From Escherichia phage vB_EcoM_Bp10, in sequence record MN122072: 52,288 bases of DNA, one strand, 5' to 3'. Under the pieces are notes generated by a model that was not told the origin of the DNA, made no database searches, and saw only the letters and a list, made by a program, of their open reading frames with translations. This document shows positions 42,866 to 45,143 of the stretch, piece after piece. The translations under genes were made by a program, and so were the position numbers. How positions within the stretch are numbered: position 1 is the stretch's first letter; each line of letters opens with the position of its first letter.

Positions 42866-43540
42866 ATGTCTTATCATGATGATGACAAAGAGATTGCACT
42901 ATCAACGTGTAAGCAATGGCTCAATGATAATGATGCCGTCTATCTTGCCAAGGAAGATGTTATCATTATGTGGGTCCATTTTAATCCAGAATCGAAGCGC
43001 GGTGAGTGGCAACGCTACAAGATGAAAGAGGCTTGTCGCATAATTAAAGCCACACGCGCTGGCTTCTCTGCTATGAAGTATATTAAGCCAGAGATGCTGA
43101 TGCTTGCTGCACAGGAAGAAGAACGTGCATATAAGCAAGCTGTTAAATCTCGTTCAACTGTTCCTCCAGAGTTCTTTAATTTGGAGCGCGCTGGACACTT
43201 CAACAATTTAGAAATGTTGACACTATGCCTGTTGCAAGAATTAGTTGGAAGAGGACAAAACATTGAAGCTGTTTGTCTTGGAGAACTCATGAAAGAGTTG
43301 TTCTCGGCAAAGGGCTTTGCTGTGCCAAATCGAACTTTACGCTGGAAATTGTTGCGAGCAGTCGCGCAAGAAGCTGGTGTAGTTGTTCGTGACAGAACAA
43401 ACCGACTCACTGTAACTGGAGTTGGGCGTTTTGTAGCAATCCAGATTGAGGGTTATGACGAATCAATCATCACTGAACTCACTGTCGCTGAGACAAAGGA
43501 TTTAGTAAATAAAACACTGGAACGATTCAATAGATATTGA
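42866..43540 (+). CDS. hypothetical protein
   Basis: Start at ATG 42866 immediately after the upstream stop; ORF track starts at 42809. Confidence 0.45.
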   Translation: MSYHDDDKEIALSTCKQWLNDNDAVYLAKEDVIIMWVHFNPESKRGEWQRYKMKEACRIIKATRAGFSAMKYIKPEMLMLAAQEEERAYKQAVKSRSTVPPEFFNLERAGHFNNLEMLTLCLLQELVGRGQNIEAVCLGELMKELFSAKGFAVPNRTLRWKLLRAVAQEAGVVVRDRTNRLTVTGVGRFVAIQIEGYDESIITELTVAETKDLVNKTLERFNRY

Positions 43541-43563: not shown

Positions 43564-43588
43564 TCTGAAACATTAGTTGGATGTGGAA
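43564..43588 (+). promoter_or_regulatory. copy of conserved motif (perfect core), candidate phage promoter
   Basis: tctgaaACATTAGTTGGATGTGgaa, 75 bp upstream of a codon-optimised gene. Confidence 0.45.
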
Positions 43589-44002: not shown

Positions 44003-44383
44003 GTTGCCGATGGCAAACTTGAGAGACTAAGCTAAATCGATCTGGCATGCACTGGAAGTTTTCCGGTGCTGCCTTGAACCCATTCCAGAGTGAGTGGGCT
44101 TCAATTTGTACATAATCCAAACACCATTGCATGAGCCTTCGACGGGAGGCAATGTTGGGAAATTTGTTGTGTACAAATTGAAGTAGTTTTCTGAGTCTTA
44201 CGACGGGCCTAAACTGCCTGGAGTTATTGCGACTGTTTTATTCATTTAAAATAAATGCAAATGATTCTGAAATGCGAGTTGCGGCTTAATTAAATTTAAG
44301 TCCTCTCCGTGGTCTTCCAATCCCACGTAACCAAATTTGGCGCATTGTGGCTTCGAGATGTGATTAATAAATCGGAGCAATAA

Positions 44384-44580
44384 TTAATTTGTATTCTGCG
44401 ATGCAACGCAGGCTTAAGTCCCTCAGTGCGCGTGGGGATGTGACAGAGTACAAACTTAATTACTAATTTGTATTCTGGTGTTGTTCGCCAAGATTGGTGC
44501 ACTCATGATTGGTAGTGTTGGAGAGCGCGGAGCCTAAAATATTATCTGGCATCTCCTACCAGAGTACAAACTTAATTATG
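44384..44580 (+). repeat. inverted and direct repeats of an 18-bp unit TAATTAATTTGTATTCTG, including a 36-bp imperfect palindrome at 44444-44478
   Basis: taattaatttgtattctg at 44388 and about 44463; reverse-complement form cagagtacaaacttaatta at 44444 and about 44560; related TTTGTTGTGTACAAATTG palindrome near 44160. Confidence 0.45.
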
Positions 44581-45019
44581 CAGTTGGATATTTCTAGAGG
44601 ACGGACGAGCACACTGGAATGTCTTCAATTGGTTTAGTGTGAGAAGCTATGGCAATTTGAAACGTAACTCCTTGGGGAAGTGCTCCTCTGGATTTCCCTC
44701 CACACAGGAATCTCAAGCCTGTGGCAGCGACTTCGAAGCTGCACTGCGTAACCTAAATTCACCCTAAAGTGAGTTGCCCTGAGTATGGAAATAAACTGCT
44801 CATAACCGATGGTATCTACAAAGGTAGATTAAATCAGGTTGCCTGTTGGTACTTGGGTTCAACACCTGCTTGCACTCGCAAAGTAGTGCCTCGTACCTGA
44901 GATGAAGTGAGTCGGGACCATCAATCCCACGTTATGCCAAAACATAGTAGGCGGCTCACAGATTCTACAAGCCTCGCAGTTCGGGAAAACCTGCGTTATC
45001 AAAACCCCCTTTTTTATTT

Positions 45020-45113
45020 GGACGAGTAGCTCAGAAGGTTTGCATTGTGCTCAGTCAGGTAGAGCAATCTGTTCGACAGATGTGTCGTTGGTTCGAATCC
45101 AACCTCGTCCACC
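45020..45113 (+). tRNA. tRNA-like gene, non-canonical (duplicated D-arm 5' segment, 5-nt anticodon loop)
   Basis: GGACGAG (45020-26) pairs with CTCGTCC (45104-10); T-arm GTTGG-TTCGAAT-CCAAC (45087-103); canonical D-arm GCTCAGTCAGGTAGAGC (45049-65) preceded by an extra TAGCTCAGAAGG; anticodon stem ATCTG/CAGAT has a 5-nt loop. Confidence 0.35.
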
Positions 45114-45143
45114 CACTTTAATAATAGCAATACTGGAGTCCTT

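What the first reader, a model, noticed from the sequence alone, without database searches (positions are those of the whole stretch)
45020..45113. tRNA-like gene with a duplicated D-arm 5' segment and a 5-nt anticodon loop
The acceptor stem, T-arm and a canonical D-arm sequence are all recognisable, but an extra TAGCTCAGAAGG-like segment precedes the D-arm and the anticodon hairpin has a 5-nt loop. It could be a pseudo-tRNA, an integration remnant or a regulatory tRNA-like structure.
Basis: seen in the sequence. Interest (0 to 1): 0.5.

Follow-up and report, generated by a model that had tools for sequence, protein, structure and literature searches.

The report
Conserved tRNA-like gene that cannot decode
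A coliphage gene that databases call "tRNA-Arg" keeps a strictly conserved tRNA body but has a 20-nt insertion in its D-loop, an anticodon loop two bases short and a freely drifting "anticodon", so it most likely serves as a tRNA-shaped RNA module rather than a working tRNA.

Summary
Window 45020-45111 (+) matches the Rfam tRNA model (45.2 bits; threshold 29). It has a perfect acceptor stem and T-arm, a 20-21-nt insertion after TAGCTCAG that repeats part of the D-arm, and a 15-nt "anticodon" arm with a 5-nt loop.

The window is a phiEcoM-GJ1-like coliphage (Carltongylesvirus). GenBank already annotates this gene as "tRNA-Arg, may contain an intron"; other tools call it Leu, Ser or nothing.

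Across about 29 relatives the body is almost invariant: 4 of 79 sites vary, against 25 of 46 third codon positions next door (P=5e-10). The would-be anticodon varies at 3 of 3 sites (UCG, UAG, AAG, CGA), like neutral sequence. No canonical ancestor or host tRNA copy was found.

In some relatives the same slot is empty, or holds an unrelated stable hairpin followed by a U-run. The element ends a roughly 1-kb untranslated array of exchangeable hairpins.

Best reading: a selected, tRNA-derived, non-decoding module, probably cut out by RNase P and 3'-end processing enzymes as a transcript-boundary element. That mechanism is inferred, not shown. A true tRNA-Arg(UCG), a counter-defence decoy and an intron-containing tRNA remain less likely rivals. 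Interest is moderate: a new variant of a known kind.

The parts
45020..45111 (+). The whole tRNA-like element (acceptor 5' end to discriminator A)
   Evidence: Rfam RF00005, 45.2 bits against gathering 29. Orthologous to phiEcoM-GJ1 gt01 'tRNA-Arg, may contain an intron'. Body 4/79 variable sites across 27 distinct relatives.
45020..45026 (+). Acceptor stem, 5' strand GGACGAG
   Evidence: Pairs 7/7 with 45104-45110. All 13 haplotypes stay paired, with one G-C to G.U change at pair 5:68.
45027..45039 (+). U8-A9 plus D-arm copy 1 (TA GCTC AGAAGG T)
   Evidence: Invariant in all relatives (0/20 variable with the acceptor strand). The Rfam model uses this copy as the D-stem and G18-G19.
45040..45048 (+). 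Variable middle of the D-loop insertion (TTGCATTGT)
   Evidence: 5/9 sites variable, pi 0.20. Two haplotypes exist: type 1 TTGCATTGT and type 2 CTGCTCCAGA. One U-A/A-U double change lies in a 3-bp mini-hairpin.
45049..45061 (+). D-arm copy 2 (GCTC AGTCAGGTA)
   Evidence: It can also pair with GAGC 45062-45065: 100% compatible, with C/U opposite G. It is partly deleted in phage SA91KD, where the Rfam model still scores 45.6 bits.
45062..45065 (+). D-stem 3' strand GAGC
   Evidence: Invariant. Pairs with either GCTC copy.
45067..45081 (+). Shortened 'anticodon' arm ATCTG-TTCGA-CAGAT
   Evidence: 15 nt instead of 17. Stems are invariant. A sixth pair, U45072-A45076, is possible in all loop variants.
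45073..45075 (+). Would-be anticodon / triloop (TCG here)
   Evidence: It is TCG, TAG, AAG or CGA in relatives. 3/3 sites variable, pi 0.24. Not different from neutral third codon positions (P=0.25) but different from the body (P=4e-4).
45087..45103 (+). T-arm GTTGG-TTCGAAT-CCAAC
   Evidence: Canonical. Only loop position 60 (T/C) varies.
45104..45114 (+). Acceptor 3' strand, discriminator A, then CCC
   Evidence: The discriminator is A or G. CCA is encoded in some relatives (GJ1, ST32, YSF, Mangalitsa) but not here.
44967..45007 (+). Context: invariant upstream block containing the weak hairpin CGCAG...CTGCG
   Evidence: 2/41 variable sites. Also present in relatives that lack the element. 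The predicted fold is not unusually stable.
44003..45019 (+). Context: about 1 kb of untranslated, conserved sequence made of exchangeable hairpin modules, ending at the element
   Evidence: No ORF of 70 aa or more. 1- and 2-nt indels lie inside conserved stretches, and GJ1 gp30 is frameshifted here. Hairpin cassettes A and B are swapped or tandem in relatives.
43572..43581 (+). Context: nearest upstream phage-promoter motif ATTAGTTGGA
   Evidence: The motif comes from the GJ1-annotated promoters. 13 matches against 4 expected in the window. The next downstream matches are at 48283 (one mismatch) and 51682.

Best explanation
The element is a tRNA-derived, strongly conserved RNA module that no longer works as a decoder. 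It keeps the parts of a tRNA that give it its shape and let processing enzymes recognise it: a 7-bp acceptor stem, the T-arm, U8, A14, G18-G19, C48, and a discriminator followed by CC. It also carries a 20-21-nt insertion in the D-loop, and its 'anticodon' arm is a short hairpin whose apical triplet is free to drift.

It has no promoter or terminator of its own. It is probably transcribed within the long phage-RNA-polymerase transcript that starts at the promoter motif at 43572. The proposed mechanism is that host RNase P cuts at its 5' end and the tRNA 3'-end enzymes cut at its 3' end. The module would then mark the boundary between the roughly 1-kb untranslated hairpin array upstream and the downstream mRNA for the small ORF and spanin genes.

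Shown here: the anatomy, the homology to the annotated 'tRNA-Arg', purifying selection on the body, neutral-rate evolution of the triplet, and the polymorphism of the slot.

Inferred: transcription, RNase P cleavage, and the boundary role.

My layered confidence: about 0.9 that it is a selected tRNA-derived element, about 0.7 that it does not decode, and about 0.35-0.4 that the processing-module mechanism is right.
For: 1. tRNA identity: Rfam tRNA 45.2 bits against 29, and 41.5-45.6 bits in relatives.
2. Non-canonical anatomy: a 20-21-nt insertion and a loop 2 nt short compared with canonical phage tRNAs.
3. Selection: 4/79 body sites are variable against 25/46 third codon positions of the adjacent ORF (Fisher P=5e-10; 43 expected at the neutral rate, P=4e-21).
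4. The triplet is variable at 3/3 sites (UCG, UAG, AAG, CGA) in phages about 91-98% identical over the surrounding 1.3 kb. It is indistinguishable from neutral sites (P=0.25). These triplets would specify Arg, Leu, Leu and Ser on one unchanged class-I body with no long variable arm.
5. All helices stay paired in 13 haplotypes.
6. Context: there is no sigma-70-like promoter and no + strand terminator next to the element. Phage-promoter motifs lie upstream at 43240 and 43572, and the next ones downstream at 48283 and 51682.
7. In BSBP01 and Shigella phage 2KOFFS the same slot holds an unrelated 17-bp hairpin plus AUUUUU (z=-5.1). In PYps3T the slot is empty. Structured-RNA modules therefore appear interchangeable here.
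8. The region upstream is an untranslated array of swappable long hairpins.
9. Base -1 is U (C in some relatives), base +1 is G, and the discriminator is a purine followed by CC. From general knowledge of bacterial RNase P, this suits an RNase P substrate.
Against: - I found no expression or end-mapping data for this phage group in the held papers. Transcription and cleavage are assumptions.
- Three Yersinia phages do without any module in the slot (PMC8762354), so a boundary function cannot be essential.
- A mere processing signal would not obviously need near-total sequence invariance of the D-arm copies and the anticodon stem. That level of constraint hints at a specific protein or RNA partner that I have not identified.
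- All four loop variants keep U first and a purine last, as real anticodon loops do (U33, R37). CGA is 2.2-fold over-used compared with E. coli.
- The D-loop insertion lies close to the elbow that RNase P contacts and might hinder recognition.
Confidence: 0.42

Rival explanations
1. It is a genuine, if odd, elongator tRNA-Arg(UCG). The G-C pair that closes the 5-nt loop opens to give a 7-nt loop G-U-UCG-A-C on a 4-bp stem. The D-loop insertion is tolerated. The tRNA supplements reading of CGA, which is rare in E. coli.
For: Relatives annotate it as tRNA-Arg (PMC6266442; PMC13340011). CGA is used at 7.7 per 1000 codons in the phage, against about 3.5 in E. coli (E. coli value from memory). U comes before and a purine after the triplet in all variants. 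The body is conserved as in real tRNAs.
Against: - The triplet changes to UAG, AAG and CGA in close relatives on the same body. That would need three different synthetases. SerRS needs a long variable arm, and E. coli ArgRS relies on C35 and A20 (established identity rules, from memory). Position 20 is U here in either D register.
- The codon enrichment is a general A+T effect: AGA, AGG and UCU are equally enriched, and UCG is depleted.
- I know of no bacterial decoding tRNA with a 4-bp anticodon stem, a G32-C38 pair or a D-loop of about 30 nt.
- ARAGORN finds no tRNA in type-2 haplotypes.
Confidence: 0.2
2. It is a counter-defence tRNA mimic. The tRNA-shaped decoy, or nuclease-resistant substitute, would occupy or evade host enzymes that attack tRNA anticodon loops. 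Its apical triplet would diversify as hosts change.
For: Phage tRNAs are known to counter anticodon nucleases and retron effectors (PMC10264068, PMC11555353). Variation is concentrated in the loop, and each variant differs by 2-3 bases with no single-step intermediates sampled. The gene is present or absent among close relatives, as accessory counter-defence genes often are (PMC8762354).
Against: - In the known cases the phage tRNA keeps its anticodon and a 7-nt loop and changes the neighbouring loop bases (PMC10264068). Here the opposite happens.
- A 5-nt loop, or a 3-nt loop on a 6-bp stem, is a poor mimic of a real anticodon loop.
- Diversity of the triplet does not exceed the neutral level (P=0.25), so diversifying selection is not required.
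- It does not explain replacement by a plain hairpin plus U-run.
Confidence: 0.12
3. It is an intron-containing tRNA. The 20-21-nt D-region insert would be removed after transcription, as the GenBank note 'may contain an intron' suggests, to give a tRNA of about 72 nt.
For: Removing AAGGTTTGCATTGTGCTCAG restores a textbook D-arm, TAGCTCAG-TCAGGTA-GAGC. The insert is bounded by the repeat GCTCAG. Its middle is free to vary, like intron sequence.
Against: - 20 nt is far too short for a self-splicing group I intron. From memory, bacterial tRNA introns of that kind are over 200 nt and sit in the anticodon loop. Rfam reports no intron.
- From general knowledge, E. coli has no bulge-helix-bulge splicing endonuclease.
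- The first copy, which would be partly removed or redundant, is invariant.
- Splicing would still leave the 5-nt loop and the drifting triplet.
Confidence: 0.05
4. It is a decaying tRNA pseudogene with no function. Its apparent conservation would come from recent spread of the cassette among phages by recombination.
For: It has two lesions that should each cripple a tRNA. It is dispensable in PYps3T, 4T and 16T. One relative has a further 7-nt deletion (SA91KD). The gene finders disagree.
Against: - A recent sweep would lower diversity across the whole cassette. Instead the triplet and the insert middle have neutral-level diversity (pi 0.20-0.24), while the 79 body positions around and between them are almost invariant.
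- Every change in a stem preserves pairing.
- The same two 'lesions' are shared by all roughly 29 carriers, which come from several continents.
Confidence: 0.08
5. It is the tRNA-like domain of a divergent phage tmRNA-like system, partnered with the SsrA-tag-like frame ANDSEMRVAA-stop 760 nt upstream.
For: The element lacks a usable anticodon, as a tmRNA tRNA-like domain does. The tag-like frame is unique in the window and absent from 300 shuffles. It is conserved, with only third-position changes. It gives weak hits to tmRNA models.
Against: - Pair 3:70 is A-U, not the G.U needed for alanine charging.
- ARAGORN finds no tmRNA at default settings and 18 noise-level calls when relaxed.
- Rfam scores are 18-20 bits against thresholds of 47-50.
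- The tag frame persists in phages that lack the element (PYps3T, BSBP01).
- The layout, with the tag upstream of an intact tRNA-like domain, fits neither one-piece nor permuted tmRNAs.
Confidence: 0.02

Closest known systems
phiEcoM-GJ1 gt01 and its orthologues, annotated 'tRNA-Arg' (GenBank NC_010106, note 'may contain an intron'; ST32 paper PMC6266442; phage Tiny PMC13340011)
   Same: It is the same gene: same position between the gp30 region and the spanin genes, and 96-100% identical in the body.
   Different: The annotation treats it as an ordinary arginine tRNA. The ST32 paper describes it as 95 bp and 'without an intron'. None of the papers I read analyses the 5-nt loop, the D-loop insertion, the changing triplet or the alternative occupants of the slot. 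I could not read the 2008 GJ1 paper.
mascRNA at the 3' end of MALAT1, and the related menRNA (PMC8457004, PMC9777231)
   Same: A tRNA-like module sits at the end of a long non-coding transcript. It has a good acceptor/T minihelix and a reduced anticodon arm, and it is not used for decoding. In that system RNase P cleavage defines the end of the upstream RNA.
   Different: That system is eukaryotic and nuclear and has experimental proof. Here cleavage is only inferred, the host is E. coli, the D region carries an insertion, and the upstream RNA has not been shown to exist as a stable species. This is a functional analogy, not homology.
tRNA punctuation of polycistronic transcripts: mitochondrial genomes, E. 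coli operons that mix tRNA and mRNA genes, and the phage T4 tRNA cluster (from memory)
   Same: tRNA structures embedded in long transcripts act as RNase P and 3'-end processing sites that separate the flanking RNAs.
   Different: In those cases the tRNAs are also functional decoders. Here decoding seems to have been lost while the shape is kept.
Phage tRNAs that evade anticodon nucleases or retron effectors (PMC10264068, PMC11555353)
   Same: A tRNA gene carried by a virulent phage, with unusual changes concentrated in the anticodon loop.
   Different: Those tRNAs keep a 7-nt loop and the anticodon and change the flanking loop bases. This element has a 5-nt loop and changes the triplet itself.
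RNase III processing hairpins between T7 early genes, and hairpin-plus-U-run terminators for T7-type RNA polymerases (from memory)
   Same: Structured RNA modules in untranslated spacers of a phage transcribed by a T7-like polymerase. They resemble the hairpin cassettes upstream and the cassette that replaces the element in BSBP01 and 2KOFFS.
   Different: The element itself is tRNA-shaped, not a long duplex. No cleavage or termination data exist for this phage group.

Membership tests
Canonical elongator tRNA (Rfam RF00005 cloverleaf) | Score above the family's gathering threshold | tested here: met
   45.2 bits against 29. Relatives score 41.5-45.6 bits.
Canonical elongator tRNA (Rfam RF00005 cloverleaf) | 7-bp acceptor stem plus discriminator, and a 5-bp T-stem with a 7-nt TPsiC loop | tested here: met
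   All pairs are standard in 13 haplotypes. The T-loop is TTCGAAT or TTCGAAC.
Canonical elongator tRNA (Rfam RF00005 cloverleaf) | D-arm: 3-4-bp stem with a 7-11-nt loop directly after positions 8-9 | tested here: not met
   Either the loop is about 29-30 nt (copy 1 as the stem), or 21-23 extra nt separate the acceptor stem from the D-stem (copy 2 as the stem).
Canonical elongator tRNA (Rfam RF00005 cloverleaf) | Anticodon arm: 5-bp stem with a 7-nt loop | tested here: not met
   5-bp stem with a 5-nt loop, or 6 bp with 3 nt. That is 2 nt shorter than the S-RIM44 tRNA-Arg and Acj133 tRNA-Ile.
Canonical elongator tRNA (Rfam RF00005 cloverleaf) | Anticodon conserved among orthologues | tested here: not met
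   UCG, UAG, AAG and CGA all occur. 3/3 sites are variable, at the neutral level.
Canonical elongator tRNA (Rfam RF00005 cloverleaf) | Aminoacylation and use on the ribosome | not testable with these tools
   Needs acid-gel or periodate assays and polysome analysis.
Class II tRNA-Leu(CAG), as ARAGORN calls it | D-arm, an anticodon arm carrying CAG, and a long variable arm, all foldable in every orthologue | tested here: not met
   ARAGORN makes this call only for type-1 haplotypes. It finds nothing in type 2 and calls Ser(gct) in SA91KD. By inspection, no D-stem can form once GCTC/GAGC is used as the anticodon stem.
Intron-containing bacterial tRNA (group I intron) | Self-splicing intron of over 200 nt in the anticodon loop, with the conserved core helices | tested here: not met
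   The insert is 20-21 nt and lies in the D-loop. No intron family matches, even in permissive mode.
tmRNA (one-piece or permuted) | G3.U70 in the acceptor stem, for alanine charging | tested here: not met
   The pair is A3-U70 in all 13 haplotypes.
tmRNA (one-piece or permuted) | Recognised by tmRNA models | tested here: not met
   ARAGORN finds none at default settings and 18 noise calls at 80% threshold. Rfam scores are 17.9-20.5 bits against 47-50.
tmRNA (one-piece or permuted) | Tag reading frame functionally tied to the tRNA-like domain | tested here: not met
   The ANDSEMRVAA-stop frame at 44257-44289 is kept in PYps3T and BSBP01, which lack the element.
Phage attachment site or integration remnant within a tRNA gene | Near-identity to the 3' part of a host tRNA gene, with an integrase nearby | tested here: not met
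   The best E. coli match is 77% over 59 nt, to a plasmid tRNA-Asn. No cellular genome carries the anticodon arm. No integrase is annotated in the first 50 kb of the 53-kb GJ1 record.
tRNA-like processing module (mascRNA type / tRNA punctuation) | Intact acceptor-T minihelix, with a reduced anticodon arm whose sequence is not constrained | tested here: met
tRNA-like processing module (mascRNA type / tRNA punctuation) | Embedded in a longer transcript, without its own promoter or terminator | tested here: inconclusive
   No consensus promoter or + strand terminator lies next to it. Phage-promoter motifs lie 1.45 kb upstream. These are consensus scans only, and no transcript data exist.
tRNA-like processing module (mascRNA type / tRNA punctuation) | Cleavage by RNase P at the 5' end in vivo, producing the end of the upstream RNA | not testable with these tools
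   Needs end mapping in wild-type and RNase P-deficient hosts.

The most novel reading that the evidence does not exclude
The element is the 3'-end-forming module of a previously unrecognised phage long non-coding RNA of about 1 kb (44003-45019). That RNA would be built from exchangeable hairpin cassettes and would carry a conserved SsrA-tag-like frame. RNase P cleavage at the tRNA-like module would release it. This would be a bacterial-virus counterpart of the MALAT1-mascRNA arrangement, and the released tRNA-shaped RNA of about 92 nt might have a partner of its own.
Probability: 0.1. Interest if true: 0.75.

Novelty: new variant of a known kind. Interest (0 to 1): 0.42.

Why it matters
Genome papers and databases count this gene as an ordinary phage tRNA-Arg and cite it as an example of codon supplementation. 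The comparative evidence says that what is conserved is the tRNA shape, not the decoding function.

If that is right, it is a clean bacterial-virus example of a tRNA recruited as a structural or processing RNA. It also warns against reading phage 'tRNA' calls at face value in codon-usage or counter-defence studies.

Natural variants offer a ready-made experiment on how a phage with a T7-like RNA polymerase organises its untranslated RNA: four loop triplets, two insert types, an empty slot and a hairpin replacement.

Tried and rejected
1. ARAGORN's tRNA-Leu(cag) with a long variable arm. It is called only in type-1 haplotypes, with nothing in type 2 and Ser(gct) in SA91KD, and no D-stem is possible. 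Rejected.

2. Search for a canonical ancestor or a copy with a normal 7-nt loop. A gapped pattern across 185,579 cellular genomes found none. Viral and metagenome collections gave only the same phage clade. The variable region plus T-arm alone is generic: Asn, Lys, Arg, Met, Pro and Phe tRNAs all have it. A 'repaired' query finds only 75-81% matches of mixed isotype.

3. Codon-usage support for decoding. CGA is enriched 2.2-fold, but so are other A/T-rich codons, and UCG is depleted. Uninformative.

4. The T7 class II pause/terminator heptamer ATCTGTT inside the arm. There are 5 matches against 10.8 expected in the window, and it is not kept in all haplotypes. Rejected.

5. tmRNA reading. Rejected for the element.

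6. Covariation to choose between the two D-arm registers. Both are 100% compatible, and there is only one double-sided change, in an insert mini-hairpin, representing one event. Energies are within about 1 kcal/mol for type 1 and favour copy 1 for type 2 and SA91KD. Unresolved, leaning to copy 1 because it is invariant and supplies U8, A9 and A14.

7. Sister genera for an orthologue. PM1 has a normal tRNA-Cys in a different slot and 4HA13 has none.

8. Recurrence of the alternative cassette or of the element elsewhere in the window. None found.

9. The 2008 phiEcoM-GJ1 paper is not held. I found no transcriptome study of this phage family in the held papers.
Full report
WHAT THE WINDOW IS. The region around the finding matches about 46 phage records at 80-99% identity. 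All are phiEcoM-GJ1-like myoviruses (Chaseviridae, Cleopatravirinae, mostly Carltongylesvirus) of E. coli and Yersinia, plus one Shigella record and one record deposited as a Staphylococcus phage. All long ORFs lie on the + strand.

CHECK OF THE OBSERVATION. The sequence at 45020-45114 reads:
GGACGAG TA GCTC AGAAGGT TTGCATTGT GCTC AGTCAGGTA GAGC A ATCTG TTCGA CAGAT GTGTC GTTGG TTCGAAT CCAAC CTCGTCC A CCC.
- The Rfam tRNA model matches 45020-45111 at 45.2 bits (gathering 29; E=1.7e-6 for the whole window). Its alignment shows a 23-nt insertion after G18-G19 and an anticodon loop two positions short.
- ARAGORN instead calls a 97-nt tRNA-Leu(cag) at 45019-45115. It reads the second GCTC...GAGC as the anticodon arm and the short hairpin as a long variable arm.
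- The acceptor pairing is the only repeat that the ungapped repeat finder reports. The D-arm 'duplication' is short and gapped: GCTCAG plus AGGT.
- Aligned with canonical phage tRNAs (S-RIM44 tRNA-Arg, Acj133 tRNA-Ile), the element is a normal class-I body with 20-21 extra nucleotides directly after TAGCTCAG and two nucleotides missing from the anticodon loop.

IT IS ALREADY ANNOTATED, INCONSISTENTLY.
- The phiEcoM-GJ1 record annotates the orthologue as a 95-nt 'tRNA-Arg; may contain an intron'.
- Ecp_YSF and Pel53 carry a 71-nt tRNA-Arg call that starts inside the element. By inspection, its acceptor stem pairs at only 4 of 7 positions.
- Most other records annotate nothing there, or a small ORF across it.
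- The ST32 paper reports a '95 bp tRNA-Arg, without an intron' (PMC6266442).
- The Yersinia phage paper speaks of 'arginine or leucine' and notes that PYps3T, 4T and 16T lack exactly this gene (PMC8762354).
- ARAGORN finds no tRNA in phages with the type-2 insert, Leu(cag) in type 1 and Ser(gct) in SA91KD.
- The Rfam model always uses the first GCTC as the D-stem.

COMPARATIVE ANATOMY. I collected the element from 29 loci plus the window: GenBank phages, IMG/VR contigs and two metagenome contigs. They give 16 haplotypes when a few flanking bases are included and 13 within the tRNA bounds. Variation is confined to a few places.
- (a) The middle of the insert. Type 1 is GGTTTGCATTGTGCTCAG (window, DE15, GJ1, ST32, SKA49). 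Type 2 is GGTCTGCTCCAGAGCTTAG (most others). TH24 has one further point change, and SA91KD has a 7-nt deletion in the second D copy.
- (b) The 5-nt loop. It is TTCGA in most phages, TTAGG in Bp7 and JL1, TAAGA in TH26, PYps16N and FXie-2024a, and TCGAA in TH29.
- (c) One acceptor pair (G-C or G.U), T-loop position 60, the discriminator (A or G), and whether CCA is encoded.

With gaps excluded and 27 distinct sequences, the figures are:
- Body: 4 of 79 sites variable (pi 0.00-0.03).
- Third codon positions of the adjacent 46-aa ORF: 25 of 46 variable (pi 0.16).
- The same ORF's first and second positions: 4/46 and 1/46.
- Intergenic spacers: pi 0.15-0.37.
- Apical triplet: 3 of 3 variable (pi 0.24).
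- Insert middle: 5 of 9 variable (pi 0.20).

Body against third positions gives Fisher P=5e-10, with 43 variable sites expected at the neutral rate (P=4e-21). Triplet against body gives P=4e-4. Triplet against third positions gives P=0.25. The body is therefore under strong purifying selection, while the would-be anticodon evolves like neutral sequence. A recent sweep of the cassette cannot explain this, because neutral-level diversity sits between and within the invariant parts.

STRUCTURE. Every helix of the cloverleaf stays paired in all 13 haplotypes, whichever D copy is used. The changes in stems are G-C to G.U only. The single double-sided change (U-A to A-U) lies in a 3-bp mini-hairpin inside the insert and represents one event. 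Covariation therefore cannot choose the D register.

I lean to copy 1 for these reasons:
- It is invariant.
- It supplies U8, A9 and A14.
- The covariance model chooses it.
- It is the minimum-energy fold for SA91KD and the best cloverleaf for type 2.
- SA91KD has lost part of copy 2 and still scores 45.6 bits.
For type 1, the copy-2 fold is 0.8 kcal/mol better, so the RNA may switch between the two.

ViennaRNA adds a sixth pair to the 'anticodon' stem. The first and last loop bases pair in all four variants (U-A, U.G, U-A, U-A). This leaves a 3-nt loop of UCG, UAG, AAG or CGA. The same pattern can also be read as U33 and R37 of an anticodon loop, so the data do not separate these two readings.

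DOES IT DECODE? Probably not.
- The loop is two nucleotides short. Opening the closing G-C pair would give a 7-nt loop on a 4-bp stem with G32-C38, which I know of in no bacterial decoder.
- The triplet would specify Arg, Leu, Leu and Ser on an unchanged class-I body. Established identity rules (from memory) need a long variable arm for SerRS, and C35 plus A20 for E. coli ArgRS. Position 20 is U here.
- Codon usage gives weak support at best. CGA is 2.2-fold over-used compared with E. coli, but so are AGA, AGG and UCU, and UCG is under-used (E. coli values from memory).

ORIGIN.
- No cellular genome among 185,579 species representatives carries this anticodon arm with any loop of 3-9 nt.
- E. 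coli has nothing closer than a plasmid tRNA-Asn at 77%.
- The best phage tRNAs are 75-81% identical and of mixed isotype.
- The variable region plus T-arm is generic.
- Sister genera have no orthologue. Pectobacterium phage PM1 has a canonical 71-nt tRNA-Cys in a different slot, downstream of the spanins. Coliphage 4HA13 has none.
The element is therefore not an attachment-site remnant or a recent host capture.

CONTEXT.
- The consensus scans find no sigma-70-like promoter and no + strand terminator next to the element.
- The core of the phage promoters annotated in GJ1, ATTAGTTGGA, occurs 13 times in the window against 4 expected. The nearest sites upstream are at 43240 and 43572, and the next downstream are at 48283 (one mismatch) and 51682. 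The element probably lies inside a long phage-polymerase transcript.
- The slot is polymorphic. PYps3T has nothing between the same flanks; the junction shows a CCAC microhomology. BSBP01 and Shigella phage 2KOFFS carry an unrelated cassette of about 60 nt that folds into a 17-bp hairpin followed by AUUUUU (-23.7 kcal/mol, z=-5.1).
- The 1 kb upstream (44003-45019) has no ORF of 70 aa or more and is 93-96% conserved. It tolerates 1- and 2-nt indels inside conserved stretches. One of these frameshifts GJ1's annotated gp30.
- That stretch contains long hairpins that behave as cassettes. Hairpin A (44099-44190) is replaced in YSF, ST32 and a metagenome contig by an unrelated hairpin B that shares only the terminal arms. 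Phage flopper has B and A in tandem. A small hairpin just before them shows compensatory changes.
- The GJ1 record lists no tRNA-related enzyme, integrase or terminator in its first 50 kb.

INTERPRETATION. The facts are: a tRNA shape kept by selection, a triplet that is not; no promoter of its own; a position at the end of an untranslated array of exchangeable structured modules; and a slot that can instead hold a hairpin plus U-run or nothing. The reading that fits best is a tRNA-derived structural module. It would be recognised by the host tRNA-processing enzymes (RNase P at 45020, 3' trimming and CCA repair after 45111) and would act as a transcript-boundary or processing element. This would work like mascRNA at the end of MALAT1 (PMC8457004), or like tRNA punctuation.

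This mechanism is inferred. I found no expression data for this phage group. The near-total sequence invariance suggests an additional specific partner that I cannot name. The rivals, with my confidence in each, are: a real if odd tRNA-Arg(UCG) (0.2), a counter-defence mimic (0.12), a pseudogene (0.08), an intron-containing tRNA (0.05) and a tmRNA-like domain (0.02).

THE tmRNA SIDE TRACK. A permissive Rfam scan gave sub-threshold hits to tmRNA models at 44096-44344 (17.9-20.5 bits against 47-50). They rest on the frame GCA AAT GAT TCT GAA ATG CGA GTT GCG GCT TAA, which translates to ANDSEMRVAA-stop (44257-44289). This resembles the E. coli SsrA tag.
- The pattern AND-x(4-7)-AA-stop occurs once in six frames of the window and in 0 of 300 shuffles. 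I defined the pattern after seeing the hit.
- The frame is intact in all close relatives, and its only two substitutions are at third codon positions. In GJ1 an in-frame stop lies five codons upstream of the frame's first codon and no start codon follows it (by inspection).
- However, the element has A3-U70, not G3.U70.
- ARAGORN finds no tmRNA at default settings and 18 noise-level candidates when relaxed.
- The frame persists in phages that lack the element and is absent from PM1 and 4HA13.
I therefore reject a tmRNA role for the finding and record the frame as a separate curiosity.

VERDICT. The gene is already in the databases as 'tRNA-Arg'. What I could not find described is that its conserved features are those of shape and not of decoding, and that it occupies an exchangeable structured-RNA slot. 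I rate it a new variant of a known kind, of moderate interest (0.42).

Noticed in passing
window 44003-45019: About 1 kb with no ORF of 70 aa or more, 93-96% conserved among relatives. 1- and 2-nt indels lie inside conserved stretches, and there is no codon periodicity. GJ1's annotated gp30 is frameshifted here by one extra base near 44755. The region looks like conserved non-coding sequence: a large structured RNA, a processing hub or an origin. Part of it (44774-44845) is 82% conserved in Pectobacterium phage PM1, a different genus.
   Followed up: partly
window 44079-44190; L002, L006, L007, L030: Modular hairpin cassettes. A long hairpin of about 90 nt (arms CTTCAATTTGTACATAA / TTGTGTACAAATTGAAG) is replaced in YSF, ST32 and a metagenome contig by an unrelated hairpin of the same size that shares only the terminal arms CTTCAAT...ATTGAAG. 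Phage flopper has both in tandem. The small hairpin just before it (44079-44098) shows compensatory changes.
   Followed up: partly
window 44257-44289 (+): The frame GCA AAT GAT TCT GAA ATG CGA GTT GCG GCT TAA translates to ANDSEMRVAA-stop and resembles the SsrA degradation tag. It is unique in the window (0 of 300 shuffles; the pattern was defined after the fact). It is intact in all close relatives, with only two third-position substitutions. In GJ1 an in-frame stop lies just upstream and no start codon follows it. Hits to tmRNA models are sub-threshold (18-20 bits). It is also present in phages that lack the tRNA-like element.
   Followed up: partly
L152 about 465-530 (BSBP01); L151 1-62 (Shigella phage 2KOFFS): An unrelated cassette of about 60 nt occupies exactly the slot of the tRNA-like element. 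It is a 17-bp imperfect hairpin followed by AUUUUU (z=-5.1), like a terminator or processing site. PYps3T, 4T and 16T have an empty slot with a CCAC microhomology at the junction.
   Followed up: yes
window 44444-44589: The window has 116 nt that GJ1 lacks, bounded by a 19-nt direct repeat CAGAGTACAAACTTAATTA (copies at 44444 and 44560). This is an insertion or deletion mediated by the repeat. A further 20-nt repeat has copies at 44379 and 44458.
   Followed up: no
window 44967-45007: An invariant 41-nt block (2/41 variable sites) just upstream of the slot, containing the weak hairpin CGCAG-TTCGGGAAAAC-CTGCG. It is kept even in phages without the element. Its predicted fold is not unusually stable (z=+0.9). 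Function unknown.
   Followed up: partly
window 44603-44609: An exact second copy of the acceptor 5' strand GGACGAG lies 417 nt upstream of the element. The chance of this in 1 kb is about 6%. ARAGORN's relaxed mode used it for a spurious permuted-tmRNA call.
   Followed up: no
window 45663-46639: A second stretch of about 1 kb downstream of the spanin genes has no + strand ORF of 60 aa or more. The equivalent part of GJ1 is unannotated. In phage PM1 a canonical tRNA-Cys sits in the corresponding region.
   Followed up: no
L019 (PP952070.1, 'Staphylococcus phage Pel53'): A record deposited as a Staphylococcus hyicus phage is a typical member of this enterobacterial phage group and carries the same element. 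The stated host looks doubtful.
   Followed up: no
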